From the NCBI GenBank assembly GCA_964595925.1, contig CAZQSG010000001.1, positions 27,437-81,037 of the forward strand: a stretch of 53,601 bases of DNA. The letters are read 5' to 3'. The stretch is from an uncultured Anaerolineaceae bacterium. Lineage in GTDB: Bacteria > Chloroflexota > Anaerolineae > Anaerolineales > Anaerolineaceae. Within the stretch, counting starts at the first letter, position 1; each line of letters begins with the position of its first letter. The translations under genes were made by a program, and so were the position numbers. A model generated the notes under the pieces. That model was not told the DNA's origin, made no database searches, and worked only from the letters and a program-made list of their open reading frames with translations. This document shows positions 202 through 20,083 of this stretch, piece after piece.

Positions 202-2004
202 ATGACGACCCATATTCGTAATTTTTGTATAATTGCACATATTGATCACGGCAAGTCAACACTGGCTGATCGACTATTACAACTGACTGGTACGATTTCT
301 GAACGGGAAATGACCAACCAGGTACTTGACACAATGGATCTGGAGCGTGAAAAAGGGGTTACGATTAAGGATTCTGCAGTTCGAATGGTGTATCATGCGA
401 AGGATGGAAAAGAGTATCATTTAAATCTTATCGATACACCCGGGCATGTAGACTTTAGCTATGAGGTGAGCAGGGCTTTGTATGCCTGCGAGGGAGCCAT
501 TTTAATCGTTGATGCGACGCAAGGGATTGAAGCGCAGACATTAGCTAATTTGTATCTGGCACTTGAAGCGGATTTAGAGATCATCCCTGTGATTAATAAA
601 ATTGATCTTATTTCTGCGCAGCCTGATTCTGTAGCAGAGGCTATCAGTAATTTATTGGGAATGGACGCAGACAGCATAATTCGAATTTCAGCCAAAGATG
701 GGGTGAATATCGAAGCCGTACTTGAGGCTGTCGTTGAAAAAGTACCACCTCCCAGAGGAAATCCTAATGCGCCTTTGAAAGCGCTTGTTTTTGATTCTCA
801 CTACGATTCATATAAAGGAGCTATTGCATATATCCGTATTGTTGAAGGGCAGATGAAAGAAACTGATGTTTTACTGGCAATGACGACTAAAACAATCATT
901 AAACCAATAGAAATCGGATATTTCTCTCCAACAATGGAACCAACAGAAATGTTGGATAATTCAGAAGTTGGGTATATTGCTACTGGTTTGAAAACAGTTT
1001 CTGAGTGCAGGGTTGGTGACACGATCACGTTGGCAAAATCACCGGCAGAGGAAAAATTACCCGGGTATCAGAAAGTGAAACCAATGGTGTATGCAGGAAT
1101 TTATCCTGTTGAAGGAGAAGATTATGCGATTCTGAAGGATTCGCTTGCCAAACTGCAATTAAATGATGCATCATTGATTTACGAGCCAGAGACATCCCAG
1201 GCTTTAAATTTCGGTTTTCGATGTGGTTTTTTGGGTCTTTTTCATATGGATATCATTCAAGAGCGTTTGGAACGGGAATACGACCTAGACATTGTTATCA
1301 CAGCGCCTTCTGTTGAATACGAGGTAGAACTCCGTACTGGTAAAGTGATTGCATTGGCATCTCCCGCAGATCTTCCCGATGAAGGAGAAATAACTGAGAT
1401 TCGTGAACCCTGGATGCGGCTTCAAATTTTTACTCCTACTGAATACTATGGTTCAGTGATGGAGCTTGTTACAAAGAGACGGGGCACGTTTGTTGAGCAG
1501 GAATATCCTGCACCAAACCGCGTACAATTAGTCTATGAAATTCCATTGTCAGAAATAATTGTGGATTTCTTCGATGAACTGAAATCACGGACACGTGGTT
1601 ATGCTTCTATGGATTATCAATTCAAAGAGTATCGAAAGGGGGATCTGGTAAAGCTCGAAATTATGGTTTCAGGCGAACCGGTCGATGCTTTATCTACTAT
1701 TGTTCATCGTGAAGATGCCTATCATCGGGGGCAGTCGCTAGTCACTAAATTGAAGAAACTGATTCCAAGGCAGATGTTTCTTGTTGCTATTCAGGCGTAT
1801 TCTCAAGGGCGTGTGATTTCTCGCGCTAATGTGAAAGCTCTTCGAAAGGATGTATTGACCAAATGTTATGGCGGTGACATTTCACGAAAGCGGAAACTGC
1901 TTGAGAAGCAGAAAAAAGGGAAGAAGCGCATGAAGAAAGTGGGGAATGTTGAGATACCGCAAGAAGCTTTCATGGCTGTTCTAAGATTAGGGGATAAAAA
2001 ATGA
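202..2004 (+). CDS. lepA: Translation elongation factor 4 (LepA), GTPase
   Basis: N-terminus [25 protein letters not shown] carries the G1 motif. DTPGHVDF (G3) and NKID (G4) are present, and the ~600 aa length with a basic C-terminal tail is typical of EF4. ATG at 202 is preferred over the in-frame TTG at 193 because homologues start about 5 residues before IRNF. Confidence 0.95.
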
Positions 2005-3011
2005 GCAAAATCGGCTTTTTCCGTAAGAACCTGATTAAATGGGTGCCAGGGGTATTATTATCGCTAATTGCTATTCTCTTTATGATATTTGCATTAGACT
2101 GGACAGGGTTTTCAACAGCGCTTAAGTCTGTGCAGTTGGTGCCTATGATATTACTTTTTTGCCTGGCAGTTCTGTCAGTTTTTTTTCGCGGTATCGCATG
2201 GCATTTTTTGCTAAGGCGAGAAGCAAGCATTGTTGATTCATTTCTTATTGAGAATGTTGGGTATCTGCTCAATAATTTTTTACCTTTACGGATGGGAGAA
2301 GTAGGCAGGGCTATCCTTATGGGACAAAAAACAGGAAAGGGTTTTTTTGAAACACTCTCAACGATTGTAATTGAACGTTTTTTTGATATTTGTTTTGCTG
2401 GAATTACTTTATTAATTGCCCTCCCTTTCTTAATTGACACGGATTTTGGCACTTCTACTCTGTTTATCACATTTGGGATTGTGGCAGTGGGATTAGGTGT
2501 GTCTTTTTGGGCAGCAAAAAGCAAAGTTAAAATCGAGAAAAAGTTGGTGCAACTCCAAGAAAAGAAACCCATTTTTGCGAAAGTGACACCCATTGTTGTA
2601 TCTTTAGTGGATGGGCTGCAGGTTATGCTAGAACCAAAACGGTTTTTATCCTTTATTGGTATGATGATACTGACATGGCTGACTTATTGGGTTTCCTATT
2701 TCATTATTATTCGTCAATTTGTACCGGATGCTCCATTTTGGTGGGCATTGTTGGTTGATGGTGTAGTTGCCTTAGGTATTGCCATTCCTTCTGCGCCTGG
2801 CAGTCTGGGTGTGTGGGAAGCTTCATTCGTGGGTTCTTTAGCGGTCGTTGGTGTAGCTCAGAGTCAAGCGCTGACTGGAGCCATTTTGTTGCATTTAATT
2901 AATTATCTCAATTCAGGAATTTTTGGGTTGATTGGTTTGATTCGTTATGGCCGATCATTTTCAGATTTGTTCTCTGAAATTCAATTAAGAAAAAATCAAT
3001 CTGATAAGTAA
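2001..3011 (+). CDS. Flippase-like / lysylphosphatidylglycerol-synthase-TM-region family (UPF0104, PF03706-like) polytopic membrane protein
   Basis: 336 aa with ~8 predicted TM helices. The stretch [11 protein letters not shown]...[17 protein letters not shown]...IVIERFFDI matches my recollection of the PF03706 signature (RW..ll, P.R.GE..R, ER..D). The ATG overlaps the lepA stop (ATGA). Confidence 0.7.
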
Positions 3012-3030
3012 GTTTTATTAAGGAGATATT

Positions 3031-4071
3031 ATGAGAAAATCAAAATACCTCATCACTGGTGGAGCTGGTTTCATTGGTTCAAATTTTGTATCGAGATTAA
3101 TCAAACGCGGCGAAGCTGTTACCGTTTTTGATAACTTATCAAGAAAGGGCACTGAACGGAATCTATCCTGGCTTCAAAAAACCTATGGTATCCATTCTTT
3201 TCGTTTAATTCAAAAGGATATTCGTGATGCCGAAGCTGTTCGTCTCGCAGCACAAGAAGCAGATATTATTATTCACCTGGCAGGACAGGTGGCTGTTACA
3301 ACTTCCGTGATTGATCCTCGAGAAGATTTTGAGATCAATGCAGGAGGGACATTTAACGTACTGGAAGGTGCAAGACTTTCTAATAACCGGCCTGTGGTTC
3401 TGTATGCTTCCACCAACAAGGTATATGGCGGAATGGAAACAGTGGATGTTCGTGAGGGAGATACTTCTTATTATTATGCTGATTTTCCGCAAGGAATTCC
3501 AGAAACGCAGAATTTAGATTTTCATTCGCCTTATGGCTGCTCAAAAGGGACCGGCGATCAATATGTTCGGGATTACGCACGTATCTATGATCTGCCTACT
3601 GTCGTTTTTCGGCAGAGCTGTATTTATGGTCCTCGACAATTTGGTATTGAAGATCAAGGATGGGTAGCCTGGTTTGTTATTGCTGCCCTGACGGATAAGA
3701 ATATTACGATCTTTGGCGATGGGAAACAAGTTCGGGATGTTCTGTTTGTTGAAGATCTGCTGGATGCTTATGATGCAGCCATCGAAAATATAGATACAGC
3801 TGCTGGTCAGGTATATAATGTGGGCGGCGGGCCAGAAAATACGATGTCGATATGGGTAGAGTTCCAGAAATATCTTGAAGAATTACTGGGCAAGAAGATT
3901 GAAGTTGCTCAAGATGACTGGCGTCCAGGGGATCAATTTATATATGTCTCTGATATTCGGAAAGCGCAAAAAGAATTGGGATGGGCTCCTACTCACTCTG
4001 TTTCTGACGGGCTCGAAAAATTATTTAATTGGGTGAAAGAGAACAGCTATCTCTTCATTGAGGATAATTAA
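3031..4071 (+). CDS. NAD-dependent sugar-nucleotide epimerase, CDP-paratose 2-epimerase (RfbE/tyvelose epimerase)-like SDR
   Basis: Rossmann motif ITGGAGFIGSNF. The blocks FDNLSRKG, HLAGQVAVTTS, FEINAGGT, STNKVYG, LDFHSPYGCSKG, DQYVRDYARIY, TVVFRQSCIYGPRQFG, DQGWVAWF and GDGKQVRDVL align block for block with Salmonella CDP-paratose 2-epimerase as I remember it. Confidence 0.8.
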   Translation: MRKSKYLITGGAGFIGSNFVSRLIKRGEAVTVFDNLSRKGTERNLSWLQKTYGIHSFRLIQKDIRDAEAVRLAAQEADIIIHLAGQVAVTTSVIDPREDFEINAGGTFNVLEGARLSNNRPVVLYASTNKVYGGMETVDVREGDTSYYYADFPQGIPETQNLDFHSPYGCSKGTGDQYVRDYARIYDLPTVVFRQSCIYGPRQFGIEDQGWVAWFVIAALTDKNITIFGDGKQVRDVLFVEDLLDAYDAAIENIDTAAGQVYNVGGGPENTMSIWVEFQKYLEELLGKKIEVAQDDWRPGDQFIYVSDIRKAQKELGWAPTHSVSDGLEKLFNWVKENSYLFIEDN

Positions 4072-4073
4072 AA

Positions 4074-5240
4074 ATGCGCATACTTGTAATGCTGACGTAT
4101 TACAGACCTCATACAAGCGGTTTAACAATCTATGCTGAACGATTGAGCAGGGCGTTCGCAAAACGCGGGCATCAAGTTACAGTTTTAACATCACAATTCG
4201 ACCCAAGCACTCCGCTGGAAGAAGTATCGGAAGGGGTACGGATTATGCGTGTTCCTGTTTTATTTCGAATCAGCAAAGGTGTCTTCATGCCAAAATTAGG
4301 CCGAATGGCAACGAGGCTGGTGAAGGAAAATGATGTAATTCAACTTCATCTACCCCAGTTTGATGCTGCAGGGGTCTCTCTCCGAGGGCGTATGTGGCAT
4401 AAACCAACCGTAATTACTTATCATTGTGATCTAGACATGCCCCACGATATTATCAGTCAGACAGCGAATATTGTGATCAATGTTGCAAACTGGATAGCGG
4501 CACTCTTCACACATCGATTTGTAGCCTATACTGAAGATTTTAGGGATCATTCACCATACTTGAGTCGGAATAAACAAAAGGTTAAAGTTATTCAACCGCC
4601 GGTGGTGATGCCAAAAGCCGCAATAGCAGATGTGGAACAGTTTGGAAAGAAACATTCCGTAGAAGATCACTATCCGATCATTGGCATGGCAACCCGATTT
4701 GCAACTGAAAAAGGTGTGGAAGTGCTTCTGGAATCTCTTCCTTCTGTGATAGACAAATATCCAAACGCAAAGGTGCTCTATGCTGGAACTTATCAGAACG
4801 TGATGGGTGAGAAAAAATACTTTGACCGTTTATATCCTGTGATTGAAAAATATGAGAAGAAGGGCCAGTGGGAGTTCTTGGGCATTCTTACCCCAAAAGA
4901 AATGGCGATGTTTTATCCAAACCTGGATATGTTAGTTATTCCAAGTTTAAACTCGACAGAATCTTTTGGCCTTGTGCAAATTGAGGCAATGATTAATGGA
5001 ACACCTTGCATTGCATCTGCACTACCGGGGGTTCGTCAACCAGTCTATCAGCATGAAATGGGGAAAGTTGTACCGATTGGTGATCATCAGGCCTTGTCTG
5101 AGGCAATATTGGAGGTTGCTGATCATAAAGAAAATTATCTAAGGGATCCAGAACCAATTCGGGAGCATTACAACCCCGAAATAGTCGCGGAGGCCTACGA
5201 AAAATTATTTATTGAAATTGATAGGGAGTTGACCCAGTAA
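4074..5240 (+). CDS. Glycosyltransferase family 4 (GT-B fold, WbuB-like)
   Basis: 388 aa. N-terminal YYRPHTSGLTIY is typical of GT4. The C-terminal E-x7-E region is SESFGLVQIEAMINGTPCIAS. It starts 2 nt after the epimerase stop. Confidence 0.8.
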   Translation: MRILVMLTYYRPHTSGLTIYAERLSRAFAKRGHQVTVLTSQFDPSTPLEEVSEGVRIMRVPVLFRISKGVFMPKLGRMATRLVKENDVIQLHLPQFDAAGVSLRGRMWHKPTVITYHCDLDMPHDIISQTANIVINVANWIAALFTHRFVAYTEDFRDHSPYLSRNKQKVKVIQPPVVMPKAAIADVEQFGKKHSVEDHYPIIGMATRFATEKGVEVLLESLPSVIDKYPNAKVLYAGTYQNVMGEKKYFDRLYPVIEKYEKKGQWEFLGILTPKEMAMFYPNLDMLVIPSLNSTESFGLVQIEAMINGTPCIASALPGVRQPVYQHEMGKVVPIGDHQALSEAILEVADHKENYLRDPEPIREHYNPEIVAEAYEKLFIEIDRELTQ

Positions 5241-5379
5241 GGTGGATTCGTACCAACCAGAATGAATTGAGTTTTTTGAAAATTCTTGTTTAACAAAAAA
5301 AATATATCAATTCAGCTTTCTATCTCTACAATTTTTATGCGACAATTACTGAAAATCTAGAAAGAAAGGTGTTCTGCAC

Positions 5380-7554
5380 ATGCATGAGCCAAGTGTACTT
5401 GATTATTTCCTCGCAAAGATTCAGTTTTGGAAAAAATCTGCTGTTGATTTTGAATTATTTTTAGCTGATAAACCTCAAGAGATTGACGATGGAGAACTGC
5501 TAAATTTCGAACAGCAGGTGCTTTATGAAAACCAGGCAGGCGAGCTTTCCACTTCCACTGTTTTAAAGAAGGAATCTCTCTTTGAACTCTCTTTGGCGTG
5601 GAAATTCATTGCTGCACTGATTTTTGCAATTGCTGGACAGAGCATGATGGAGCTCTCTGATCCCAATATAGCTATCGCTATTTTTCTATATAGTTTTTCT
5701 TTACTCTTTATTCTATGGGCGTTTGTTAAAAAGGAATTAATTTTACCCGTTATGTCTTCCTCGGATGTCGAGGATGCGAGTGATTCATTTCATCTGGGTT
5801 CCCTTTTAATTAGTCTTCCTTTTCTCCTTGCGGCATTTATTACTTTTCGCGACAATAGATTCACACTGCTCAATCTGTTTCTCTGGCTTGTCGCAATTAT
5901 CCTGATAATCCATTCAGTTTGGATTCCAAACAAGAAATGGAGTCTGAAAAAATTCTTAACTGAAATTCAAAAAATTTTCAGTCGGTCTGCTGTTAATTTA
6001 AAAATTTCCTGGTGGAAAATCCTGCTCCTCTTTGTTGCAATAGTGGCTATCTTTTTCAGGTTCTATCAACTCGACTCTGTTCCGGGTGAGATGTTTAGTG
6101 ATCACGCAGAAAAATTATGGGATGTACAGGATGTGTTGGACGGACAATTTTCCATCTATTTCCCTAGAAATACTGGTCGGGAAGCATTTCAGATGTATTT
6201 GACTGCCTTTATATCGCAATTTCTTGGTACAGGAATTTCGTTTTTAAGCTTAAAGATAGGCACCGCTCTTTGTGGGTTGGTGATGCTTCCCTATATTTAC
6301 CTTATTGGGAAAGAACTAGGTAATAAATGGGTGGGATTATTTGCATTAATTTTCGCCAGTTTTGCTTATTGGCCGAATGTGATTGCACGAGTAGGTTTAA
6401 GATTTATTTTAACTGCCTTTTTTGCTGCACCTACGATGTATTACCTTTTACGTGGTTTACGTCGTCATCGGCGGAACGATTTTATCCTTTGCGGCGTTTT
6501 CTTGGGGTTGGGATTACATGGGTATAGCTCTTCACGCTTTGTTCCAGTTTTGATATTAGTGGCAGCCGGGATTTATTGGCTGCATCAGAAACGAGCAAGC
6601 CTTAAGCGCAACAAGGTGCTGGGAGCTGTGTTAATCATCGCCCTTGTCTCGTTTGTAATTTTTCTTCCTTTGTTTCGGTATTCACTTTCTTCCCCTGATA
6701 TGTTTACCTATCGGATGAGAACGAGAATAGGAACTGCCGAAGCAGAATATCCTGGTTCACCTTTCTTAATTTTCCTTGACAATTTTTTTGATGCAAGTGT
6801 CATGATGTGGTTTGATAATGGTGGTACATGGGTGCATAGTGTTGTCTCTCGTCCCGCATTAGATTTGATAACCGCAGTTTTCTACTTTTTTGGGTTATTA
6901 TTCATAATTCTTCGTTATATTAAGAAACGAAATTGGGAAGATTTATTTCTCTTAATTTCTATCCCTGTTTTATTGATGCCTTCCATATTATCTTTGGCAT
7001 TTCCGGGTGAAAATCCATGCTTGAATCGAACTTCTGCGGCAATTGTTCCGGTCTTCCTGGTGGCAGGAATTGGAATGGAAGGTCTGCTTTCAAACATGCA
7101 CCGACACTTTAAAACGAAACGTAAAACGATTCTTATTGGTTTTATCGCAGTGCTTTTACTTCTTTGGTCGGCTGGTTTGAATTATGATCTGGTGTTCAAT
7201 CAATATAAAGAGCAGTATATGGCTAATGCATGGAATACCAGCGATCTTGGGTCAGTAATTAAGGGATTCACTGATTCTGTAGGAAATCCTGAAGCTGCCT
7301 ATGTAGTACCATATGCTTATTGGGTTGATACCCGGTTGGTGGGGATCAACGCGGGGTACCCGCGGACAGACTATGCGCTTTGGCGTGATGGTATTCCAGC
7401 TACATTAGACCAAAAGGGTCCCAAATTGTTCCTGTTCAAACCTGAAGATGAGGAAACAATGCAGGCTTTGTTTGAGTCTTATCCAACAGGTCAATTGAAG
7501 CTCTATGATGACCAATATGAAGGCAGAGATTTTTATATATTCCTGACCCAATAA
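5380..7554 (+). CDS. Large polytopic membrane protein, GT-C-like (ArnT/PMT_2-like) putative glycosyltransferase
   Basis: 724 aa with >12 predicted TM helices. An acidic motif sits in the first extracytoplasmic loop after an RFYQLD helix end (PGEMFSDHAEKLWD). A C-terminal soluble domain of ~110 aa follows. SD GAAAGGTG lies upstream of the ATG. The family call rests on topology and motif only. Confidence 0.55.
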   Translation: MHEPSVLDYFLAKIQFWKKSAVDFELFLADKPQEIDDGELLNFEQQVLYENQAGELSTSTVLKKESLFELSLAWKFIAALIFAIAGQSMMELSDPNIAIAIFLYSFSLLFILWAFVKKELILPVMSSSDVEDASDSFHLGSLLISLPFLLAAFITFRDNRFTLLNLFLWLVAIILIIHSVWIPNKKWSLKKFLTEIQKIFSRSAVNLKISWWKILLLFVAIVAIFFRFYQLDSVPGEMFSDHAEKLWDVQDVLDGQFSIYFPRNTGREAFQMYLTAFISQFLGTGISFLSLKIGTALCGLVMLPYIYLIGKELGNKWVGLFALIFASFAYWPNVIARVGLRFILTAFFAAPTMYYLLRGLRRHRRNDFILCGVFLGLGLHGYSSSRFVPVLILVAAGIYWLHQKRASLKRNKVLGAVLIIALVSFVIFLPLFRYSLSSPDMFTYRMRTRIGTAEAEYPGSPFLIFLDNFFDASVMMWFDNGGTWVHSVVSRPALDLITAVFYFFGLLFIILRYIKKRNWEDLFLLISIPVLLMPSILSLAFPGENPCLNRTSAAIVPVFLVAGIGMEGLLSNMHRHFKTKRKTILIGFIAVLLLLWSAGLNYDLVFNQYKEQYMANAWNTSDLGSVIKGFTDSVGNPEAAYVVPYAYWVDTRLVGINAGYPRTDYALWRDGIPATLDQKGPKLFLFKPEDEETMQALFESYPTGQLKLYDDQYEGRDFYIFLTQ

Positions 7555-7569
7555 TTAAAGGACGCGAAT

Positions 7570-10500: not shown

Positions 10501-12915
10501 ATTGTGGGCGGAATTGTCTGGTATATTTGCATCTTATTATTAGGATGGATAATGTATCCAGTGGTGCGAATGGCCTTCAGCGGTTTGGTGGATCGAGGTT
10601 ATGCAGTTTCAAGATTCGCTGGATTATTGCTGATTGCATTATGCAGCTGGTTATTAGGTTCAGCGGCAGTGCCGGTAACAAGAATGACCGTATGGCTGGT
10701 GATTGTATTTTTGGCACTCATGAATCTGTTTGTATTTCTAAAGAATCGGGCTGAAATCATCGCCGAAATACGTGAATCGAAAAAATTATTCCTGATGATA
10801 GAGCTGGTTGCTTTATTAAGTTTTTTGGCATTCCTGCTGATTCGCTTGGGGAATCCTGATTTATGGCATCCATATAAGGGTGGCGAGAAACCAATGGATT
10901 TCTCTTACCTGAACGCAGTGATTAAGAGCACCACCTTCCCTCCTTATGATCCCTGGTTTGCGGGAGGATATATCAATTACTATTATTACGGATTTGTCAT
11001 CGTGGGAATGCCCATCAAGGCTTTAGGCATTGAACCTGCAATTGCTTACAACCTGGTTCTTCCGACATTATTTAGTTGTTTTTCTCTGGCTGCCTTTACC
11101 TTTGGTTACAACGTATTAACAGTCCCTGAAAAAGGTCTCTCGAAAAAGTGGTCTGATTTCCTGAGACAGGCTCCTGTGTTCGGCGGTTTAATTGCAGTAA
11201 TATTCTCATTAATTATTGGGAGTATTGGCACGATAAAGATGGTTTTCAATGGCTTGATGCGATTGGGCGGTGTAAGTGAGCCTGTTTTGTTGAACTTCTG
11301 GAACAATGCATCAGCATTCTTTAAAGGGATTGGAATGGCATTCCAGGGGAATGTACTGCCATTTTACCCGGGGGATTGGTATTGGATTCCAAGCAGGGCA
11401 ATTCCGGGAGAGGCAATTACAGAATTTCCTTTCTTTACCTTCCTTTATGCTGACCTGCACGCTCATTTAATTGCGTTGCCGATCACATTGTTCGTTTTGG
11501 TATGGGGATTATCAGTATTGAGAACAAAATGGATTTTCAAAGGAGTCCACCAATGGAAAAAATTAGCCGTAAGTCTGATTATTGGTGCTGTTGCGGTTGG
11601 AGCATTACGACCTACGAATACCTGGGATTTCCCTGTTTATTTGGTGTTATCGGTTCTGATCATTGGTTATGCTCTGACTCGAAATTTTCATTATGATTTT
11701 TCAAAAACAATGGCATGGGTTCCTGAGAAATTGAGAAATGTAACCTTTGCAGGGTTAGTGAGCATTGCATTTATTCTATTATGCCTGGTGCTTTACTCCC
11801 CATTTTCCGAATGGTACGGACAGGGTTATTCATCGGTCAAATATTGGGAGGGGGATCATACCCCAATCGGTTCTTATCTCACTCATTGGAGTGTTTTTCT
11901 TTTTGTCTTACTTTCGTGGTTGGTTTACGAAATCTATGATTGGATGCGTGTTACTCCGGTTTCTTATTTGAAAACTTTGCGCCCTTATCGCTTATGGATT
12001 CAAATTGGGATGAGCATTTTACTGATGTTGCTGATTACACTTGCAATACTTGGTGTATCCATCATCTGGATTGCGCTGCCAATCGCGTTTTTGGCAGGCG
12101 TGCTTCTATTTCGACCAGGTATCAGTGATCGAAAGCGTTTGGTTTTATTTATGACAGGAACAGGCTTGGTGTTGACAATTCTTGTTGAAGTGATTGCTTT
12201 AGAAGGCGATATAGGGCGGATGAATACTGTTTTCAAATTCTATCTTCAAGCATGGGTGTTATTATCACTTTCTTCAGCAGCTGCGCTCAGTTGGTTAATT
12301 CCTGCGGTGCGAAAGAATGATGGTATATTCCCCGTCGTATTTCGGGTTGTGTTTGGGATACTATTCTTTTCTGCTCTGCTATATCCTGTAATGGCTACCA
12401 GAGATAAAATTAATGACCGGATGCAACCAGATGCGCCTCACACACTTGATGGAATGGCTTATATGGCTTTTTCATCGTACAATGACCAGGGACAAGATTA
12501 TTCTCTAAGTGAAGATTATTTGGCGATTCAATGGATGCAGGAAAATATCGAAGGTTCGCCTGTTATTATTGAAGGTAATACGGTGGAATATCGTTGGGGC
12601 TCCCGCTATACGATCTATACAGGATTGCCATCTGTCGTAGGTTGGAATTGGCATCAGCGTCAGCAGCGTACGGTTGTTTCTTCTGAGCGCGTAACTGATC
12701 GAGTGGATGATGTCAAACTTTTCTATAATACAACGGATGGTGAAGAGGCGCAAGCAATATTAGAGCAATATGATGTTTCCTACATTGTCGTCGGACAGTT
12801 GGAACAAGTGTATTTCCTCCCAGAAGGACTGGAAAAATTTGATGCCTTCGATGGAAAATATTGGACAACTGTCTATCAGGTAGGGGAGACGACGATCTAC
12901 AAAGTGATAGAATAA
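7570..12915 (+). CDS. Giant (1781 aa) fusion membrane protein: N-terminal GT-C-like module, central duplicated soluble region, C-terminal Chlor_Arch_YYY (DUF2298/TIGR03662-like) module
   Basis: The ORF is uninterrupted. The N-terminal loop motif is HLHPDERFLTF (7741-7770). The central region of ~480 aa has no TM helix. The C-terminal module carries GGEKPMDFSYLNAVIKSTTFPPYDPWFAGGYINYYYYGFVIV, with EKPMD at 10885-10899 and YYYY at 10978-10989. This is the hallmark YYYxG motif of the Chlor_Arch_YYY family as I recall the TIGRFAM description. Confidence 0.75.
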   Translation: MSIEEQKHQNSPIEKNSLSAESQQKQHKSQWIWTVVLILVLAAGGYVRTVGMDWDDHEHLHPDERFLTFVVSSIHPNENPADFFNTSKSTMNPNNVGYGFFVYGTLPLFIVRAAADQLSVTGWDMYLVGRYVSAIFDILTILITYLIGYKLFKKEWVAVLGAAFYACAVLPIQLSHYFTVDIQANFFSMTAFYFAVVAMRQKRKLNRKNDEEYETYEGDKKPLTDELILWVTGRWEEAIPYLLFGVFYGLAMASKVSVLPIAALIAIAAIVSYMGLSNEDRKEALPFLIRNVLLAAVVSVIIFRIGQPYAFQGPGFFGILPNKDWINDLTSLSGQAKGLVDFPPALQWSRRPLSFGFTNLIRWGLGLPLGIWAWISFFWMLWKIIRYPSRRYLGLLWLFTAAYFVWQSLAFNSMMRYFMQIYVPLSLIAAWGFSELFNLKFQRKWFQSGFRILSPILCVGIILSTAAWAFAFSNIYTRPATRVEASDWYFQNISGPINLNVLLEDGDEKQQVLPYEAGVLINSERPLVYSFQAVTTGTISEIHLSHIRTEYSDGDLYHGIYAEITTSFDEETPVGYGELFTEFRKETNQMGDPQTIFLAQPAYIEKGEEYFLTLESESETANLSIAGSIYLDIQRRDDGTDQLQVLPEAVHRITETTPKTSTFTSKYTGQLRSISIPNIADHLGVISEKTLQMQITDSSNLENTTITKVVSDFLPVGDPKGEEFTFNFNPPLNLIEGNIYYLDLSLDGDGSIAIYGTKQVNESSWDDVVPQRRDGYDPFSETNGVYRTELNFEMYWDDNEDKRERFLNNLEEADLIMITSSRQWANTTRVPERYPMTSMYYRELLGCPDGENIERCYEIAEPGMFTGNLGFELIEVFQSNPNIGDFEINDQPSEEAFTVYDHPKVLLFEKTDAYDTEAVRQLFYAIDLDAVMHMIPAEVPQRTAKNLLLPPDRLTEQRAGGTWSELFNSASVLNSNPIVGGIVWYICILLLGWIMYPVVRMAFSGLVDRGYAVSRFAGLLLIALCSWLLGSAAVPVTRMTVWLVIVFLALMNLFVFLKNRAEIIAEIRESKKLFLMIELVALLSFLAFLLIRLGNPDLWHPYKGGEKPMDFSYLNAVIKSTTFPPYDPWFAGGYINYYYYGFVIVGMPIKALGIEPAIAYNLVLPTLFSCFSLAAFTFGYNVLTVPEKGLSKKWSDFLRQAPVFGGLIAVIFSLIIGSIGTIKMVFNGLMRLGGVSEPVLLNFWNNASAFFKGIGMAFQGNVLPFYPGDWYWIPSRAIPGEAITEFPFFTFLYADLHAHLIALPITLFVLVWGLSVLRTKWIFKGVHQWKKLAVSLIIGAVAVGALRPTNTWDFPVYLVLSVLIIGYALTRNFHYDFSKTMAWVPEKLRNVTFAGLVSIAFILLCLVLYSPFSEWYGQGYSSVKYWEGDHTPIGSYLTHWSVFLFVLLSWLVYEIYDWMRVTPVSYLKTLRPYRLWIQIGMSILLMLLITLAILGVSIIWIALPIAFLAGVLLFRPGISDRKRLVLFMTGTGLVLTILVEVIALEGDIGRMNTVFKFYLQAWVLLSLSSAAALSWLIPAVRKNDGIFPVVFRVVFGILFFSALLYPVMATRDKINDRMQPDAPHTLDGMAYMAFSSYNDQGQDYSLSEDYLAIQWMQENIEGSPVIIEGNTVEYRWGSRYTIYTGLPSVVGWNWHQRQQRTVVSSERVTDRVDDVKLFYNTTDGEEAQAILEQYDVSYIVVGQLEQVYFLPEGLEKFDAFDGKYWTTVYQVGETTIYKVIE

Positions 12916-12930
12916 ACCTATTGAATAGGA

Positions 12931-15522
12931 ATGAATATGGGCACATTTTTCCTCTGGTATTTAGTAATTTTTCTCCTCGGTCTGATTGGGTTCCCGATCT
13001 CATTCCGTTTATTAACTAAACTTAAAGATCGAGGTTACACACTTGTAAAAAGTCTCAGTCTGCTTGTTTGGGGATACCTTTTCTGGTTATTGTGTGTTCT
13101 TGGACTGGTGCAAAATAACATCGGAGGTGTTGTCTTTGCACTTGTCGTCTATCTGGGGATTTCGATCGCCTGTTTGAATGGAAAACTACAAGAGATACGG
13201 ATATGGATTCGTGACAATTATCGAATCCTCTTACTTTCAGAAGCCGTGTTTTTTATTGCATTTGCTTTGTGGACAGTTGTTCGTGCTGCAAACCCGGCAT
13301 TGATTGGCACTGAAAAGCCAATGGAGCTAGCCTTTATTAATGCTATTTTGAAATCACCCACATTCCCGCCAATTGATCCCTGGTTATCAGGTTATTCAAT
13401 TTCCTATTATTATTTTGGTTATGTAATTGTGAGTATGCTGATTCGAATTACTGGAACTCTCCCGACAATTGCTTTTAACCTGATGCTCTCACTTTTGTTT
13501 GGTTTGGTGGCAGTAAGTTCGTTTGGTATTCTGAACAATCTCCTACAAACCAGAAATAAGGAGAAGGATGGGGCTCATTTTTCAATTTCACAATGGCTGG
13601 CAGGTTTGCTGGGGCCGGTGTTTATTTTAATCATTGGGAATCTGGAAGGTTTTTTGGAAATGCTGCATGCAAAAGGACTTTTCTGGACTCGAAGTGCGGA
13701 CGGCAGTTTCACTTCAAAATTTTGGAATTGGTTGCGTATACCGGAGATTGAACTTCCACCTACAGAGCCTTTTAGCTGGATTCCAAACCGGCAGAATGGT
13801 TATTGGTGGTGGCGTGCCTCACGGGTGCTGCAAGCTTATAAAATTAGTGGAGAACGAATCGAAATTATTGATGAGTTTCCGCAATTTTCATACATACTTG
13901 CTGACATGCACCCCCATGTTTTATCGATGCCTTTTGTATTACTGGCGGTTGGAGTCATCTTTAATATATTTCTGGCAGGTTCTAAATCAGCAGAAGGGAA
14001 AGTCGGCATTCTGTCCTGGATGCGTTCTAAATTATTCAAACGCGAAGGGATTGATTTCCAGGAAACATACGTATATTCATGGGTGAAAGACCCTATATTT
14101 TGGTTAATCGCTTTGATAGCCGGGGGGATTGCATTTTTTAATATTTGGGATTTCCCAATTTATGTTGGATTATTGTGTCTGTCCACTGTTCTCTATCAGT
14201 ATTGGCAGACAGGTTGGGGGAAAGCGCGTTGGATTGAGTTCTTTGAAACAGGCATTCTCACCGGACTTGCCGGCATTCTTTTGTATTTGCCATATTATTT
14301 AGGCTTTGGTTCTCAAGCCGGGGGTGTTTTACCAAGTCTTAATTTTTATACAAGAGGCGTGTATTTCTGGATCATGTTTGGCGGTTTATTGATTCCAATT
14401 TGTGGGTGGATGATCTGGAGGAGAATTAAAACCAAAAATGAATTTAATGCAAAATTTGGGGGAATTGTTTCTGGCGGGCTGGTTTTCGGATTATGGGTGG
14501 TATCTTATCTGTTTACAGCTCTTCTGCTTGTTATTGGCGGGATGGGGGATGGCTCTGAAAAAGTTCAGGATTTACTGGGACAATTCTACTGGCTGCAGGG
14601 TGGTGTTGATGGGCGGACAATGCTGGTTCAATCCTTTGCAAACCGATTGGTTGAGCCAGGGACATGGATAACTTTACTTATTATGCTTGCACTGGTCTGG
14701 GGGTTGTTGGCAGGGATAAAACGGAAAAAGTATAACCAAGTTGATCGAAACGGCGAAAACAAATCAATGATAGCCGGGTTTGTGTTGTTACTGATCCTTT
14801 TGGGGTTGGGGTTGGCCTTAGTACCCGAATTCTTTTACTTACGGGATCAGTTTGGCACTCGAATGAACACCATTTTTAAATTCTATTTTCAAATCTGGAT
14901 ATTATGGGGGTTGGCTGCTTCTTTCGCACTGATCGTGCTATGGAGAGAAACCAAAGGATTTGCCAGATTAGTTATCCGCATTGCTTCGATTTTCTTAATC
15001 GGGTTGGGTCTTGCATATCCTGTCTTTGCGATTTTAAGGACGACAAATAATTTAAATCCGCAAACTTATCAGGATGGTGAATTGGTATCAGACTGGTCTT
15101 TGGATGGTGCCTTATACCGCACTCGCAATAATCCTGATGAAATGGCTGCGATAAAATGGCTGCGCGATAAAGCTCCTTTAGGTGTTGTTGCCGAGGCGGT
15201 AGGTGGAAGCTATACTGACTATGCGCGTGTAGCCACGTATTCGGGAATGCCGAATGTTCTTGGGTGGCCCGGGCATGAGAGTCAGTGGCGCGGTGGTGGA
15301 GAAGAGATGGGATCTCGTGAATCTGACATTGAATTAGTATATCGGAGCGGAAATTGGGACCAGGTTCAGATGATTCTGGATCAATATAATATTCGATATG
15401 TTTTTCTAGGTAATCTGGAACAGATCAAGTATGGGGCATCTGATAAAGTGTTTTCGATTTATTTGGCGCCTGTATTTCAAGCTGGCGACACTAAAATATT
15501 TGAATATAACCCCCTGGAATGA
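12931..15522 (+). CDS. Chlor_Arch_YYY (DUF2298/TIGR03662-like) polytopic membrane protein
   Basis: 863 aa and highly hydrophobic. GTEKPMELAFINAILKSPTFPPIDPWLSGYSISYYYFGYVIV (EKPME 13312-13326, YYY 13405-13413) is paralogous to the C-terminal module of the preceding ORF. The C-terminal soluble domains are also paralogous (LGWPGHESQWRGG...YNIRYVFLGNLEQ versus VGWNWHQRQQR...YDVSYIVVGQLEQ). Confidence 0.8.
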   Translation: MNMGTFFLWYLVIFLLGLIGFPISFRLLTKLKDRGYTLVKSLSLLVWGYLFWLLCVLGLVQNNIGGVVFALVVYLGISIACLNGKLQEIRIWIRDNYRILLLSEAVFFIAFALWTVVRAANPALIGTEKPMELAFINAILKSPTFPPIDPWLSGYSISYYYFGYVIVSMLIRITGTLPTIAFNLMLSLLFGLVAVSSFGILNNLLQTRNKEKDGAHFSISQWLAGLLGPVFILIIGNLEGFLEMLHAKGLFWTRSADGSFTSKFWNWLRIPEIELPPTEPFSWIPNRQNGYWWWRASRVLQAYKISGERIEIIDEFPQFSYILADMHPHVLSMPFVLLAVGVIFNIFLAGSKSAEGKVGILSWMRSKLFKREGIDFQETYVYSWVKDPIFWLIALIAGGIAFFNIWDFPIYVGLLCLSTVLYQYWQTGWGKARWIEFFETGILTGLAGILLYLPYYLGFGSQAGGVLPSLNFYTRGVYFWIMFGGLLIPICGWMIWRRIKTKNEFNAKFGGIVSGGLVFGLWVVSYLFTALLLVIGGMGDGSEKVQDLLGQFYWLQGGVDGRTMLVQSFANRLVEPGTWITLLIMLALVWGLLAGIKRKKYNQVDRNGENKSMIAGFVLLLILLGLGLALVPEFFYLRDQFGTRMNTIFKFYFQIWILWGLAASFALIVLWRETKGFARLVIRIASIFLIGLGLAYPVFAILRTTNNLNPQTYQDGELVSDWSLDGALYRTRNNPDEMAAIKWLRDKAPLGVVAEAVGGSYTDYARVATYSGMPNVLGWPGHESQWRGGGEEMGSRESDIELVYRSGNWDQVQMILDQYNIRYVFLGNLEQIKYGASDKVFSIYLAPVFQAGDTKIFEYNPLE

Positions 15523-15529
15523 GGTGAAA

Positions 15530-17248
15530 ATGCAGGAAAATAAGATTTTGATTAATAATATAAACCTTCTACCGATTATCATCGCAATATTTTTGGCTGG
15601 GATGTTCCTGCGATTTTATAAGTTAGGATCAAACCCATTAGACAATCATGAAGCCGCTTATGCGTTACAAGCGTTAGATGCGGCCTCTAACAAGAACAAT
15701 TTTCCAGTTCAAACTGATCCTTTATTGGTGCTTGGTACTGCAGCGTTATTTTTCTTCTTTGAAGATAACACTTTACTGGCCCGGGTATTACCCGCATTGT
15801 TTGGGTCAGCACTGATCCTGGCTCCATTATTCTTGCAGAAGAAATACTCACCAACAGTGTTATTAATTCTTTCAATTGGGTTGGCCTTTGATCCGAGTCT
15901 CGTTGCCATGTCGAGAACTGCGGATAGCCATATTATTACGCTTGCAGTCTTTTCATTTCTCCTCATTGCGATGTTATGGGATAAGGCGATATGGTTTGGA
16001 ATTCTCACTGGTCTTTTGTTATTAAGTGGCCCGAATATTGGTTTGTTGTTGTTAATTTTGTCCGGTGTGTTCATTTGGGATTGGTTCACTGGCAGGTCAA
16101 TGATTCATTCTCTGCCAAACCGATTTAAAAAAATTCCCTGGAAAGCAATAGTATTGTCATTTTTTATCACTTTTCTGTTGGGTGGTACATTATTTTTACA
16201 ACGTCCCGAGAGCATCAGTGCCGTTTTTATGGGGCTGAACGAATTCTTTGTTGGCTGGGTGAGCACCGAATCTAACTTATCAATTTCCCAAATTGGCATT
16301 GTGTTGATTGCATATGAGCTCTTTGTCATAGTTTTTGGACTATGGGGAATAGTTTATTTTTCACGTCAGAAGGAAAAAAAGCAGTTGAACCTCTTACATT
16401 GGCTGATAATAGCGTTATTCCTTGTGACATTATTTCCAGCCAGAACAGCGGGGGATTTGATCTGGGTACTTGTTCCTTTGTGGGTTTTTGCTGCTATGCA
16501 AATTGAAAGAATAATACAAGTATTTAAAAAGATTAATTGGATCGCTATCGGGTTAGGTATATTCTATTTGGTTTTATTGTGTTTTATAATTCTAAATTGG
16601 GTCAGTATAGTGAACAACCAATTTGATCAGCAACAGGTTGTTTTACGATGGTTATTAATCGGTGGTTCGATTCTCCTAATAGTGCTTGTAGCTTTTATGG
16701 TCAATTATGGGTGGGGGATGTCTTTCGGTACAAATGCTTTGCTGACGGCAGTATTTGTGTTTTTGATAGGGTTTAGTCTTCTTCCTGCAATATGGTCATC
16801 TACTTTCTTAGGAAATCGCCCCGATCTTGAGTTCTGGAGGTTTGCGCCTTTTCCAGGACAATCAGCTTATCTTAAAGAAACGATCGATGATTTGTCGGAG
16901 TGGAATCATGGCGACAATGAAAGCCTGGAGATTGTTACGGTGGGAGTGAATGATCCTTCATTAAAGTGGTTATTGCGAGAGTATAGGGTCAATTATGTTT
17001 CTGGTTTGGCACCTGCCACGTCACCTGAAATTATTATTACTCCCATTTATGAGAGCGGAGGGTGGAATGCGTCTTATACTGGACAAGATTTTGCCATCAG
17101 GCAATATCCTAATTGGTCACTGTTATTTTCACAAGAATGGCAGCAATGGTATTTACATCGGAATGTGGATGTAACGAGAGAATTGGTCATTCTTTGGACG
17201 CGAACGGACATTTTTCCTGGTAGTAGTATTCCTGGTGTTGAAGACTGA
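15530..17248 (+). CDS. Polytopic membrane protein, GT-C-like (ArnT/PMT_2- or TIGR03663-like) putative glycosyltransferase
   Basis: 572 aa from the ATG at 15530, which follows SD GAGGTGA 7 nt after the upstream stop. The track ORF start at 15431 would overlap the previous gene by 92 nt and has no SD. The first loop after RFYKLG contains NPLDNHEAAYAL. There are ~13 TM helices and a C-terminal soluble domain. Confidence 0.5.
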   Translation: MQENKILINNINLLPIIIAIFLAGMFLRFYKLGSNPLDNHEAAYALQALDAASNKNNFPVQTDPLLVLGTAALFFFFEDNTLLARVLPALFGSALILAPLFLQKKYSPTVLLILSIGLAFDPSLVAMSRTADSHIITLAVFSFLLIAMLWDKAIWFGILTGLLLLSGPNIGLLLLILSGVFIWDWFTGRSMIHSLPNRFKKIPWKAIVLSFFITFLLGGTLFLQRPESISAVFMGLNEFFVGWVSTESNLSISQIGIVLIAYELFVIVFGLWGIVYFSRQKEKKQLNLLHWLIIALFLVTLFPARTAGDLIWVLVPLWVFAAMQIERIIQVFKKINWIAIGLGIFYLVLLCFIILNWVSIVNNQFDQQQVVLRWLLIGGSILLIVLVAFMVNYGWGMSFGTNALLTAVFVFLIGFSLLPAIWSSTFLGNRPDLEFWRFAPFPGQSAYLKETIDDLSEWNHGDNESLEIVTVGVNDPSLKWLLREYRVNYVSGLAPATSPEIIITPIYESGGWNASYTGQDFAIRQYPNWSLLFSQEWQQWYLHRNVDVTRELVILWTRTDIFPGSSIPGVED

Positions 17249-17286
17249 TTCAACAAAACTTTTACAGGTAAAAGGAAGCATAAGTA

Positions 17287-17988: not shown

Positions 17989-17990
17989 TT

Positions 17991-18767: not shown

Positions 18768-18788
18768 CAGAAGACACGGAGATTAAGG

Positions 18789-20075: not shown

Positions 20076-20083
20076 AAATTCTC

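What the first reader, a model, noticed from the sequence alone, without database searches (positions are those of the whole stretch)
2001..17248. Seven-gene envelope-glycosylation-like cluster built around two Chlor_Arch_YYY (DUF2298) modules and three further GT-C-like polytopic proteins; function unknown
Seen in sequence:
- Seven co-directional ORFs have gaps of only 19, 2, 139, 15, 15 and 7 nt.
- A cytoplasmic supply module comes first: a PF03706-like flippase-type membrane protein, a CDP-paratose-2-epimerase-like SDR and a GT4 glycosyltransferase.
- Four consecutive huge polytopic proteins follow (724, 1781, 863 and 572 aa), about 3,940 aa of membrane protein in total.
- Each carries an acidic motif in its first extracytoplasmic loop: SDHAE, HPDERF, EKPMD, EKPME and DNHEA. 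That is where GT-C fold transferases (ArnT, PMT, PglB/STT3, Emb) place their catalytic acidic residues.
- Two modules carry the YYYxG hallmark (10978-10989 and 13405-13413).

Established knowledge: the TIGRFAM description of Chlor_Arch_YYY, as I recall it, notes a patchy Chloroflexi/Archaea distribution, co-occurrence with a PMT-like partner family (TIGR03663) and unknown function.

Inference: the locus looks like a complete lipid-linked-sugar synthesis, flipping and extracytoplasmic transfer or polymerisation machine for an uncharacterised glycoconjugate of a monoderm-type envelope. Five GT-C-like modules in a row is unusual.
Basis: partly seen in the sequence, partly recalled or inferred. 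Interest (0 to 1): 0.75.

Follow-up and report, generated by a model that had tools for sequence, protein, structure and literature searches.

The report
Conserved Anaerolineae GT-C glycan-assembly gene cluster
This is a real seven-gene cluster, conserved across Anaerolineae bacteria, that joins a sugar-activating and lipid-flipping module to five membrane glycosyltransferase-like (GT-C fold) modules; it probably builds an unknown cell-surface glycan that nobody has studied experimentally.

Summary

**Domain calls that hold:**
- PF03706 flippase-like protein.
- SDR, 49.8% identical to the CDP-glucose/CDP-mannose 2-epimerase TaTyvE.
- GT4.
- PMT_2 protein.
- 1781-aa fusion of a PMT-like module, two beta-sandwiches, an alpha/beta domain and a YYY module.
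- 863-aa YYY protein.
- Agl23-like protein that scores below the family cut-off.

**New here:**
- AlphaFold2 models plus Foldseek place both the PMT-like module and the DUF2298/YYY module in the GT-C fold. YYY also carries an AglB-like C-terminal domain.
- Gene order is conserved in about 80 Anaerolineae species genomes.
- Other lineages fuse PMT-like+YYY+YYY into one 2400-2700-aa protein.
- A divergent, rearranged locus keeps flippase+GT4 beside the GT-C block.

**Caveats:**
- The cluster is not "complete": neither it nor the window encodes a polyprenyl-phosphate-sugar synthase or a priming transferase.
- lepA and cmk are equally conserved neighbours, so synteny alone is weak evidence.
- No paper was found on DUF2298 function.

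**Best model:** lipid priming inside, flipping, then GT-C extension outside, as in the PIM/LM/LAM and GPI pathways. Moderately interesting; a new variant of a known kind.

The parts
2001..3011 (+). o1: polytopic MprF-flippase-domain-like protein (PF03706 / TIGR00374), 336 aa. Its start overlaps the lepA stop by 4 nt.
   Evidence: PF03706 E 3.9e-39, 135 bits; TIGR00374 80 bits. Conserved upstream of the SDR or GT4 in relatives.
3031..4071 (+). o2: extended SDR, CDP-tyvelose 2-epimerase-like (probable NDP-hexose C2 epimerase, Glc<->Man), 346 aa.
   Evidence: PDB 9RL0 (TaTyvE) E 1.2e-103, 49.8% identity over 329 columns; 1ORR E 3e-90. TaTyvE activity is described in PMC13098431 and PMC7851689.
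4074..5240 (+). o3: GT4 (GT-B, retaining) glycosyltransferase, 388 aa.
   Evidence: PF00534 91 bits and PF13439 63 bits. The best full-length PDB relatives are PimA (E 7e-14) and MshA-like proteins.
5241..5379 (.). 139-nt AT-rich spacer. At this position 41 of 50 relatives carry a class I SAM methyltransferase gene, and some carry two.
   Evidence: tblastn of the L001 methyltransferase: present in 41/50 loci, no match in the window.
5380..7554 (+). o4: PMT_2-type GT-C protein, 724 aa, with an N-terminal extension (four extra TM segments in the crude hydropathy count) and a C-terminal soluble domain (about aa 604-724). The conserved loop is PGEMFSDHAEK (6082-6111).
   Evidence: PF13231 E 8e-12, 46 bits against a cut-off of 26. 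Invariant or near-invariant E237, S240, D241, H242, E244, K245 in 26 orthologues.
7570..9045 (+). o5 module 1 (aa 1-492): PMT/ArnT/STT3-like GT-C membrane module with a near-invariant HPDERF loop (7750-7767).
   Evidence: PF02366 26.0 bits against a cut-off of 22.7 when scanned alone. AF2 pLDDT 86. Foldseek gave 33 hits at E<=1e-3, all but two of them GT-C: AglB, STT3, Pmt4, ArnT, Emb, ALG9/12. hhalign against the o4 family: 95%, E 4e-8.
9058..9852 (+). o5 aa 497-761: two tandem beta-sandwich (jelly-roll) domains, extracytoplasmic.
   Evidence: AF2 secondary structure, all-beta, pLDDT about 90. Jelly-roll hits and full-length alignment to EmbA/EmbB. Variable in length among orthologues.
9967..10449 (+). 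o5 aa 800-960: highly conserved alpha/beta extracytoplasmic domain (SSNRQW...VYDHPKV). It is the usual C-terminal domain of this PMT-like family.
   Evidence: Many invariant columns. The same domain ends the stand-alone 629-aa PMT-like protein of L089.
10504..12915 (+). o5 module 2 (aa 979-1781): Chlor_Arch_YYY / DUF2298 module with EKPMD, YYYY, TEFP...DLHAH motifs and a C-terminal globular domain.
   Evidence: TIGR03662 514 bits; PF10060 376 bits. 27% identical to o6, E 9e-63.
12931..15522 (+). o6: stand-alone Chlor_Arch_YYY / DUF2298 protein, 863 aa, comprising a polytopic GT-C-fold membrane domain (aa 1-704) and an AglB-like C-terminal globular domain (aa 705-863).
   Evidence: TIGR03662 477 bits. 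AF2 pLDDT 88.5, pTM 0.93. Foldseek matched DPY19 at 9e-7, AglB at 2e-6 and AftA at 1.5e-4, all at prob 1.0, and the C-terminal domain matched 3VU0 with TMt 0.51. Cross-phylum invariants are E128, D149, Y159-161, E315, D325, H327, H329, D407 and E633.
15530..17248 (+). o7: Agl23-like (TIGR03663-related, sub-threshold) polytopic protein, 572 aa, with an invariant Glu41 in its first outside loop and a C-terminal soluble domain.
   Evidence: TIGR03663 62 bits against a cut-off of 126, and 28/29 orthologues hit it. hhalign against the o4 family: 86%, E 5e-6 over the N-terminal 160 columns. Invariants R28, E41, R85.

Best explanation
The locus is a core Anaerolineae assembly line for an extracytoplasmic glycan. 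It follows the logic of the mycobacterial PIM/LM/LAM pathway and the eukaryotic GPI pathway.

**Proposed steps**
1. o2 interconverts an NDP-hexose at C2, most likely CDP- or another NDP-glucose/mannose.
2. o3, a retaining GT4, puts that hexose on a membrane-lipid acceptor at the cytoplasmic face. In most relatives a methyltransferase modifies the product.
3. o1, an MprF-flippase-type protein, moves the glycolipid to the outer leaflet.
4. Five GT-C-fold modules (o4, o5-N, o5-YYY, o6-YYY, o7) extend or transfer the glycan outside the membrane. They would use polyprenyl-phosphate-linked sugars made by enzymes encoded elsewhere. The beta-sandwich domains of o5 would hold the growing chain.

The product would be a lipid-anchored or wall-bound glycan of the monoderm-type envelope.

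**Shown**: domain identities, the GT-C fold, conserved acidic and histidine residues in outside loops, conserved linkage, and fusion of modules.

**Inferred**: every substrate, the order of steps, and the nature of the product.
For: - **Domains**.
- **Epimerase**: o2 is 49.8% identical to TaTyvE, a proven CDP-Glc/CDP-Man 2-epimerase (PMC13098431).
- **GT4**: its best full-length solved relatives are the lipid/inositol-directed PimA and MshA.
- **Precedent for GT plus flippase**: a glycosyltransferase paired with a flippase-only MprF homologue has a glycolipid precedent in HexSDF (PMC10128005).
- **GT-C fold**: o6; o5-N, including full-length alignment to Emb proteins, which also carry periplasmic beta-sandwich domains.
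- **Homology among modules**: o4, o5-N and o7 are homologous.
- **Conserved residues**: invariant extracytoplasmic E/D/H residues persist across phyla in YYY.
- **Linkage**: neighbours of o6 are conserved in 48/52 to 63/66 testable loci from about 80 species genomes.
- **Fusions**: PMT-like+YYY+YYY occur as single 2434-2744-aa proteins.
- **Rearranged locus**: divergent locus L089 keeps flippase+GT4+methyltransferase next to the GT-C block although the order has changed and the SDR is lost.
- **Independent context**: in a Lachnospiraceae plasmid, DUF2298 sits inside a surface-polysaccharide cluster with wecB, GT2 x2, DegT, a GtrII-like gene and an O-antigen ligase.
Against: - No GT2 polyprenyl-phosphate-sugar synthase or priming transferase lies in the cluster or the window.
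- YYY resembles solved GT-C enzymes only by fold. TM-scores are 0.3-0.43, and sequence profile searches found nothing.
- The closest named relative of o7 is reported to be a flippase (PMC11182771).
- lepA and cmk are conserved neighbours as often as the glyco genes (cmk 60/65), so synteny within one class is weak proof of function.
- In L087 the fused giant has no flippase or GT4 nearby.
- No glycoconjugate of Anaerolineae is tied to this locus in the literature searched.
Confidence: 0.45

Rival explanations
1. This is a protein-glycosylation system. The PMT-like modules would O-glycosylate secreted or envelope proteins from polyprenyl-P-hexose. The YYY modules, with their AglB-like C-terminal domain, would act as oligosaccharyltransferase-like enzymes on protein acceptors such as S-layer, sheath or Pro/Thr-rich proteins.
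For: - o4 and o5-N match PMT/PMT_2.
- Foldseek's top matches for both models include AglB/STT3 and Pmt4.
- The YYY C-terminal domain matches the AglB C-terminal globular domain (3VU0, prob 1.0, TMt 0.51).
- Agl23, the nearest named relative of o7, works in haloarchaeal N- and O-glycosylation (PMC11182771).
- A Pro/Thr-rich secreted protein is encoded nearby at 18789-19679.
Against: - No WWDYG-type motif was seen.
- The Emb-like beta-sandwich domains, together with a GT4 and an MprF-type flippase, fit a lipid or polysaccharide acceptor better.
- No target protein is conserved in the cluster: the gene at 18789-19679 is absent at that position in L001.
Confidence: 0.22
2. These are two independent modules that are neighbours only by inherited gene order. 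o1-o3 would make and flip a membrane glycolipid (HexSDF-like), while o4-o7 would be a separate GT-C system using other substrates.
For: - A 139-nt spacer, or in relatives one or two extra genes, separates o3 from o4.
- lepA and cmk show that unrelated genes keep their place here.
- L087 has the GT-C giant without a flippase or GT4.
- Four loci lack o4 (L004, L009, L011, L012).
Against: The flippase, GT4 and methyltransferase remain adjacent to the GT-C block in the rearranged, distant locus L089, where GT4 is only 34% identical. GT4 is present in 48/52 loci.
Confidence: 0.18
3. Some or all of the GT-C-fold proteins are not transferases. They would act as lipid-linked-sugar flippases, scramblases or scaffolds. 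This would apply to o7 as an Agl23-type flippase, and possibly to YYY as a transporter.
For: - Purified Agl23 translocates a lipid-linked oligosaccharide in liposomes (PMC11182771).
- o7 orthologues evolve fast (median 29% identity) and keep few invariant residues.
- YYY has no sequence-level link to any proven transferase.
Against: - YYY keeps a dense set of invariant acidic and histidine residues in outside loops across phyla, plus a conserved globular outside domain. This is typical of active sites.
- o4 and o5-N keep the PMT-type acidic loop.
Confidence: 0.12
4. The genes are adjacent by chance, or the ORFs are mis-called.
For: None found.
Against: Every ORF has full-length homologues, and the order recurs in about 80 species genomes.
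Confidence: 0.01

Closest known systems
Chlor_Arch_YYY / DUF2298 (TIGR03662, PF10060)
   Same: o5-C and o6 score far above both cut-offs and carry the YYYxG hallmark. Architectures with two copies plus an N-terminal region and TPR repeats also occur among relatives.
   Different: The family has no known function. What is added here is the GT-C fold assignment, the AglB-like C-terminal domain, the list of invariant residues and the class-wide gene context.
Mycobacterial PIM/LM/LAM and arabinogalactan machinery (PimA GT4; PimE, MptA/B, EmbA/B/C, AftA-D GT-C) and the eukaryotic GPI pathway (PIG-A GT4, then GT-C mannosyltransferases)
   Same: - The logic matches: a cytoplasmic GT4 primes a lipid, the product is flipped, and several GT-C enzymes act outside.
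- Several GT-C genes lie in a row.
- Emb-like periplasmic beta-sandwich domains are present.
- PimA is the best full-length solved relative of o3.
   Different: - No sequence-level orthology exists to any of these GT-C families.
- The YYY fold match is remote (TM 0.3-0.43).
- Acceptor, sugars and product are unknown.
- The comparison with the pathways themselves rests on established knowledge, not on a test made here.
AglB/STT3/PglB oligosaccharyltransferases (GT66)
   Same: They are among the top Foldseek matches for both o6 and o5-N. The YYY C-terminal domain resembles the AglB C-terminal globular domain.
   Different: No profile-level sequence similarity was found, and no WWDYG motif was seen. 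The catalytic-loop position differs: it follows TM4, not TM1.
Agl23 (TIGR03663) of Haloarcula hispanica
   Same: o7 and 28/29 of its orthologues hit TIGR03663 over about 350 residues.
   Different: The score of 62 bits is below the 126-bit cut-off, so o7 belongs to a sister group and is not a member. Agl23 is reported to be a hexose-P-dolichol / LLO flippase (PMC11182771). The function of o7 is untested.
PMT / ArnT-type GT-C (GT39/GT83; PF02366, PF13231)
   Same: o4 (PF13231) and o5-N (PF02366, plus fold) share the core and an acidic first loop.
   Different: - o4 has an extra N-terminal membrane region.
- o5-N is fused to two beta-sandwiches and a YYY module.
- No profile hit was found to any solved PMT or ArnT sequence.
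C. difficile HexSDF glycolipid operon
   Same: A glycosyltransferase is paired with a protein that is only the flippase domain of MprF, as with o3 and o1.
   Different: HexS is an MGDG-synthase-type enzyme. No GT-C proteins follow it, and a deacetylase is present instead of an epimerase.

Membership tests
TIGR03662 / PF10060 (Chlor_Arch_YYY, DUF2298) | Score above the curated cut-offs (300.25 and 27.8 bits). | tested here: met
   o5: 513.9 and 376.1 bits. o6: 477.2 and 358.0 bits.
TIGR03662 / PF10060 (Chlor_Arch_YYY, DUF2298) | YYYxG motif. | tested here: met
   YYYYG at 10978-10992 and YYYFG at 13405-13419. Y159-Y161 and G163 are invariant in 49 sequences and across phyla.
GT-C glycosyltransferase superfamily | GT-C membrane fold. 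| tested here: met
   o6 matched DPY19, AglB and AftA at prob 1.0, E 9e-7 to 7e-4, although TM-scores are only 0.27-0.43. o5-N gave 33 hits at E<=1e-3, all but two of them GT-C. o4 is assigned by Pfam. o7 is assigned only by hhalign (86%) and a sub-threshold TIGR03663 match.
GT-C glycosyltransferase superfamily | Conserved acidic residue(s) in an extracytoplasmic loop near the start of the core. | tested here: met
   - o4: E237, D241 and E244 are near-invariant.
- o5-N: D63 and E64 are near-invariant.
- YYY: E128 and D149 are invariant.
- o7: E41 is invariant.
- The outside location is inferred from positive-inside counts and the AF2 model; it was not measured.
GT-C glycosyltransferase superfamily | Transfer from a polyprenyl-phosphate-linked sugar donor. 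| not testable with these tools
   This needs biochemistry. No donor synthase gene is in the window.
TIGR03663 (Agl23) | Score above the curated cut-off (126.25 bits). | tested here: not met
   o7 scores 61.8-62.1 bits. 28/29 orthologues hit the model, best E 1.7e-18. They are related, but o7 is not a member.
PF13231 PMT_2 | Score above the gathering cut-off (26.1 bits). | tested here: met
   o4 scores 46.1 bits, E 8e-12.
PF02366 PMT | Score above the gathering cut-off (22.7 bits). | tested here: inconclusive
   The first 500 aa of o5, scanned alone, score 26.0 bits over 78 residues. The match is not listed when the full protein is scanned at E<=0.01. Many orthologues carry precomputed PF02366 or PF13231 hits.
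PF03706 / TIGR00374 (MprF flippase-like domain) | Score above the cut-offs (33.4 and 43.2 bits). | tested here: met
   o1 scores 135.4 and 80.2 bits, covering almost the whole profile. Flipping activity was not tested.
CDP-tyvelose 2-epimerase-type SDR | Close full-length similarity to characterised members, set apart from other extended SDRs. | tested here: met
   9RL0 E 1.2e-103 (49.8% identity) and 1ORR E 3e-90. The next best hit, a UDP-glucose 4-epimerase, is at 1e-35. Substrate was not tested.
GT4 (GT-B, retaining) | Both Rossmann halves: PF13439/PF13579 at the N-terminus and PF00534 at the C-terminus. | tested here: met
   PF13439 scores 63 bits and PF00534 scores 91 bits. No NCBIfam equivalog reaches its cut-off.

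The most novel reading that the evidence does not exclude
DUF2298/YYY proteins form a previously unrecognised catalytic family of GT-C enzymes with an AglB-like acceptor-binding domain. Together with fused or adjacent PMT-like modules, they would form a multi-active-site complex that builds a class-defining, possibly essential, envelope lipoglycan or glycoprotein layer of Anaerolineae. Counterparts would exist in Archaea and Firmicutes. In this reading a CDP-hexose 2-epimerase, GT4 and MprF-type flippase supply the lipid anchor.
Probability: 0.3. Interest if true: 0.75.

Novelty: new variant of a known kind. Interest (0 to 1): 0.5.

Why it matters
Anaerolineae are abundant in sediments, digesters and wastewater, yet the chemistry of their cell envelope is almost unknown.

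- **A defined candidate locus.** A core-genome cluster with five GT-C-fold modules, lying between lepA and cmk in about 80 species genomes, is a concrete starting point for finding the major envelope glycoconjugate of this class.
- **A hypothesis for a large orphan family.** DUF2298 has 9,246 clusters at 50% identity and occurs in Chloroflexota, Firmicutes and Archaea. Placing it in the GT-C fold, with named candidate catalytic residues, gives it a testable biochemical hypothesis.
- **A possible physiological role for an enzyme studied outside its biological context.** The papers consulted here study CDP-glucose/CDP-mannose 2-epimerases for catalysis and synthesis. This locus suggests where such an enzyme might act in a cell.

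Tried and rejected
- **Profile searches of solved structures.** The YYY, o7 and o4 alignments found nothing meaningful in PDB sequences.
- **YYY against the PMT_2 family.** hhalign gave no signal (prob 1.4%), so the YYY to GT-C link rests on fold only.
- **Promoter and terminator scan, 1500-18000.** Counts were at the level of shuffled sequence. No operon boundary can be drawn from them.
- **RNA genes.** Rfam and tRNA scans of the whole window found nothing.
- **Archaeal context.** The only archaeal hit reachable, a Halarchaeum plasmid, runs across the record start and has uninformative neighbours. Archaeal synteny remains untested.
- **Literature.**
  - Searches for DUF2298, PF10060, TIGR03662/3 and \"YYY domain\" found no functional study. 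The \"YYY domain\" hits are the unrelated Y_Y_Y domain.
  - Searches for Chloroflexi with GT-C or with lipoglycan also found no functional study.
  - The primary Agl22/Agl23 paper (Lu 2020) is not held.
- **cmk as a functional partner (CMP/CDP recycling).** I considered this and left it as an idea only, because cmk sits next to housekeeping genes generally.
- **Antisense ORFs.** Those at 1970-2593, 7436-7789 and 15709-16089 overlap conserved plus-strand genes and were treated as spurious without further testing.

Full report
**1.

ORF listing and translation give seven co-directional genes: 2001-3011, 3031-4071, 4074-5240, 5380-7554, 7570-12915, 12931-15522 and 15530-17248. Recomputed intergenic gaps are 19, 2, 139, 15, 15 and 7 nt, and each quoted motif sits at the quoted coordinates.

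The longest ORF for the last gene begins at 15431.

The flanks are housekeeping genes:
- lepA (193-2004), whose stop overlaps the o1 start.
- cmk (17287-17988) and xth (17961-18767).

The rest of the window is also housekeeping and holds no further glycosyltransferase. No tRNA or Rfam family is present.

**2. Domain identities**

| Gene | Result |
|---|---|
| o1 | PF03706/TIGR00374, the flippase domain of MprF (135 bits) |
| o2 | Extended SDR; nearest solved relatives are the CDP-tyvelose 2-epimerases 9RL0 (E 1e-103, 49.8% identity) and 1ORR (3e-90); next class at 1e-35 |
| o3 | GT4; no equivalog model reaches its cut-off; best full-length solved relatives are PimA and MshA-type enzymes |
| o4 | PF13231 (PMT_2) |
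| o5, o6 | TIGR03662 (514 and 477 bits; cut-off 300) and PF10060 |
| o7 | No Pfam match; TIGR03663 at 62 bits, below the 126-bit cut-off; 28/29 orthologues behave the same way |

- 9RL0 is TaTyvE, which converts CDP-glucose to CDP-mannose (PMC13098431; PMC7851689).
- TIGR03663 is now named \"flippase activity-associated protein Agl23\". o7 is therefore a relative of Agl23 but not a member of the family.

**3. Fold evidence (new)**

*o6.* An AlphaFold2 model built from 49 homologues is confident (pLDDT 88.5, pTM 0.93).
- The only strong Foldseek matches in the PDB are GT-C enzymes: C-mannosyltransferase DPY19, oligosaccharyltransferase AglB and arabinosyltransferase AftA. All have probability 1.0, with E between 9e-7 and 7e-4.
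- The C-terminal globular domain separately matches the C-terminal domain of AglB (3VU0, TMt 0.51).
- Global TM-scores are low (0.27-0.43), and sequence profiles see nothing. YYY is therefore a remote GT-C family.

*o5, residues 1-1000.* The model (pLDDT 86) shows four parts:
- A GT-C membrane module. It gave 33 Foldseek hits at E<=1e-3, all but two of them GT-C enzymes: AglB, STT3, Pmt4, ArnT, EmbA/B/C, ALG9 and ALG12.
- Two beta-sandwich domains.
- A conserved alpha/beta domain.
- Then the YYY module begins.

Scanned alone, the N-terminal 500 residues reach PF02366 (26.0 bits against 22.7).

*Profile-profile comparison.* This ties o5-N to o4 (95%, E 4e-8, 370 columns) and o7 to o4 (86%, E 5e-6, N-terminal 160 columns). 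The acidic loops align with one another.

All five modules are thus GT-C-like, with evidence of unequal strength.

**4. Conserved residues and topology**

| Module | Invariant or near-invariant residues |
|---|---|
| YYY, membrane part (o6 numbering) | E128, M131, D149, W151, Y159-161, G163, E315, P317, D325, H327, H329, N404, W406, D407, E633, R644, N646, K650 |
| YYY, C-terminal cluster | E755, Y761, R766, G778, W779, H782, R787, R796 |
| o4 | E237, S240, D241, H242, E244, K245 |
| o5-N | H61, P62, D63, E64, R65, F66 |
| o7 | R28, E41, R85 |

- The YYY residues are invariant across Anaerolineae paralogues and a Lachnospiraceae homologue.
- Positive-inside counts and the model place these loops outside the membrane.
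- In YYY the acidic loop follows the fourth helix, not the first.

**5. Gene context**

A scan of one genome per species found 595 related stretches. The 80 loci kept are all of Anaerolineae type and include the cultured Ornatilinea apprima.

With o6 as anchor, and counting only loci long enough to test, the neighbours are present as follows:

| Neighbour | Present / testable |
|---|---|
| o5-YYY | 63/66 |
| o5-N | 57/59 |
| o4 | 50/55 |
| GT4 | 48/52 |
| o7 | 63/70 |
| cmk | 60/65 |

- Loci that reach far enough upstream show lepA, then PF03706, then the SDR.
- Most relatives (41/50) carry a SAM methyltransferase between GT4 and o4. The window lacks it and has only a 139-nt spacer there.
- Some relatives add a second methyltransferase, or a DUF952-like protein plus a GNAT between o5 and o6.
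- lepA and cmk are just as conserved, so order within one class cannot by itself prove a shared function.

Three further observations do better than plain synteny:
- **Fusions.** An exhaustive profile search found 9,246 clusters at 50% identity (E<=1e-3), including 2434-2744-aa proteins. P0327 is PMT/PMT_2 plus two DUF2298 copies. P0369 and P0394 have two DUF2298 copies plus TPR repeats.
- **A rearranged divergent locus.** In L089 the order is lepA, PMT-like, PF03706, GT4, methyltransferase, fused giant, YYY, o7-like, PMT_2-NHL. The supply genes stay beside the GT-C block although GT4 is only 34% identical and the SDR is missing.
- **An unrelated genome.** In a Pseudobutyrivibrio plasmid, DUF2298 lies inside a surface-polysaccharide cluster.

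Against a tight link, locus L087 has the fused giant and another YYY gene next to cmk but no flippase or GT4.

**6. Mechanism**

The best-supported reading has three stages:
1. Priming inside: o2 epimerises an NDP-hexose and o3 puts it on a membrane lipid.
2. Flipping by o1.
3. Extension outside by GT-C modules, with the o5 beta-sandwiches binding the glycan as in Emb proteins.

The PIM/LM/LAM and GPI pathways use the same logic. The pairing of a glycosyltransferase with a flippase-only MprF homologue has a glycolipid precedent in HexSDF (PMC10128005). All substrates and the product are inferred.

The missing piece is the source of polyprenyl-phosphate sugars.

Rival readings:
- Protein glycosylation. 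This is favoured by the PMT, AglB and Agl23 resemblances.
- Two independent modules.
- Non-catalytic or flippase roles for some GT-C-fold proteins, since Agl23 flips lipid-linked oligosaccharide in vitro (PMC11182771).

**7. Novelty and score**

No paper in the library addresses DUF2298, TIGR03662 or TIGR03663-like proteins in bacteria. One paper merely lists a DUF2298-PMT2 neighbourhood in a Chloroflexi genome (PMC8756737).

The genes are common in public metagenome-assembled genomes, where they are annotated as \"DUF2298\" or \"YYY domain-containing protein\". The kind of system, GT-C-based extracytoplasmic glycosylation, is known. The YYY family, its fusion architectures and this class-wide cluster are an uncharacterised variant.

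I rate interest at 0.5. This is a solid, testable lead for envelope biology of Chloroflexota and for a large orphan membrane-protein family, but it is not a surprise in kind.

Noticed in passing
window 5241-5379: This is an AT-rich 139-nt spacer. At the same position 41 of 50 related loci carry a class I SAM methyltransferase gene, and some carry two. The window has no match to that gene anywhere, so this organism would make an unmethylated version of the product.
   Followed up: partly
window 2001-2004 and 17249-17286: The lepA stop overlaps the o1 start (ATGA), and cmk starts 38 nt after o7. All genes from 193 to 19679 are on the + strand, so the glyco genes may be co-transcribed with housekeeping genes. 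The lepA-flippase and o7-cmk adjacencies recur in relatives. cmk is adjacent even in the distant locus L087, where it is in the opposite orientation.
   Followed up: partly
window 18789-19679: A 296-aa protein with an N-terminal hydrophobic segment and a Pro/Thr-rich linker (TNTPEPTKPPLPTNTPAPT). It has no Pfam match. Linkers of this type are typical O-glycosylation targets. It is not present at this position in L001.
   Followed up: no
L025 6104-7071; L051 8980-9950; L055 6387-7345; L082 8180-9132: In several relatives two small genes are inserted between the o5 and o6 orthologues. One encodes a 117-121-aa protein that looks DUF952-like by eye (family not checked), and the other a GNAT-like acetyltransferase of about 205 aa.
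   Followed up: no
P0327, P0369, P0394 (loci L089, L087): These are giant single proteins of 2434-2744 aa that combine a PMT-like module with two YYY modules, and TPR repeats in two of them. L089 also carries a 1011-aa PMT_2-NHL fusion. L087 has a glycoside-hydrolase-like gene (Alpha_L_fucos/GHL6) right after the YYY genes.
   Followed up: partly
window 12931-15522: An identical protein (P0001, 100% identity, 861 aa) is already in ENA on a 35.9-kb contig, so this organism or a near-identical one has been assembled before. The next relative is only 57% identical. An o7 relative at 91% identity also exists (P0241).
   Followed up: no
window 19707-26513, 34741-36066, 39250-40260: The surrounding genes are housekeeping. 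They include a glycerol-3-phosphate dehydrogenase-like trio (DAO/BFD, Pyr_redox_2, DUF1667) with an FGGY-family sugar kinase, a RodZ-like protein with a duplicated HTH_25 domain, and MreB.
   Followed up: no
window 1970-2593 (-), 7436-7789 (-), 15709-16089 (-): Antisense ORFs of 117-207 aa lie inside conserved + strand genes and are probably not genes.
   Followed up: no
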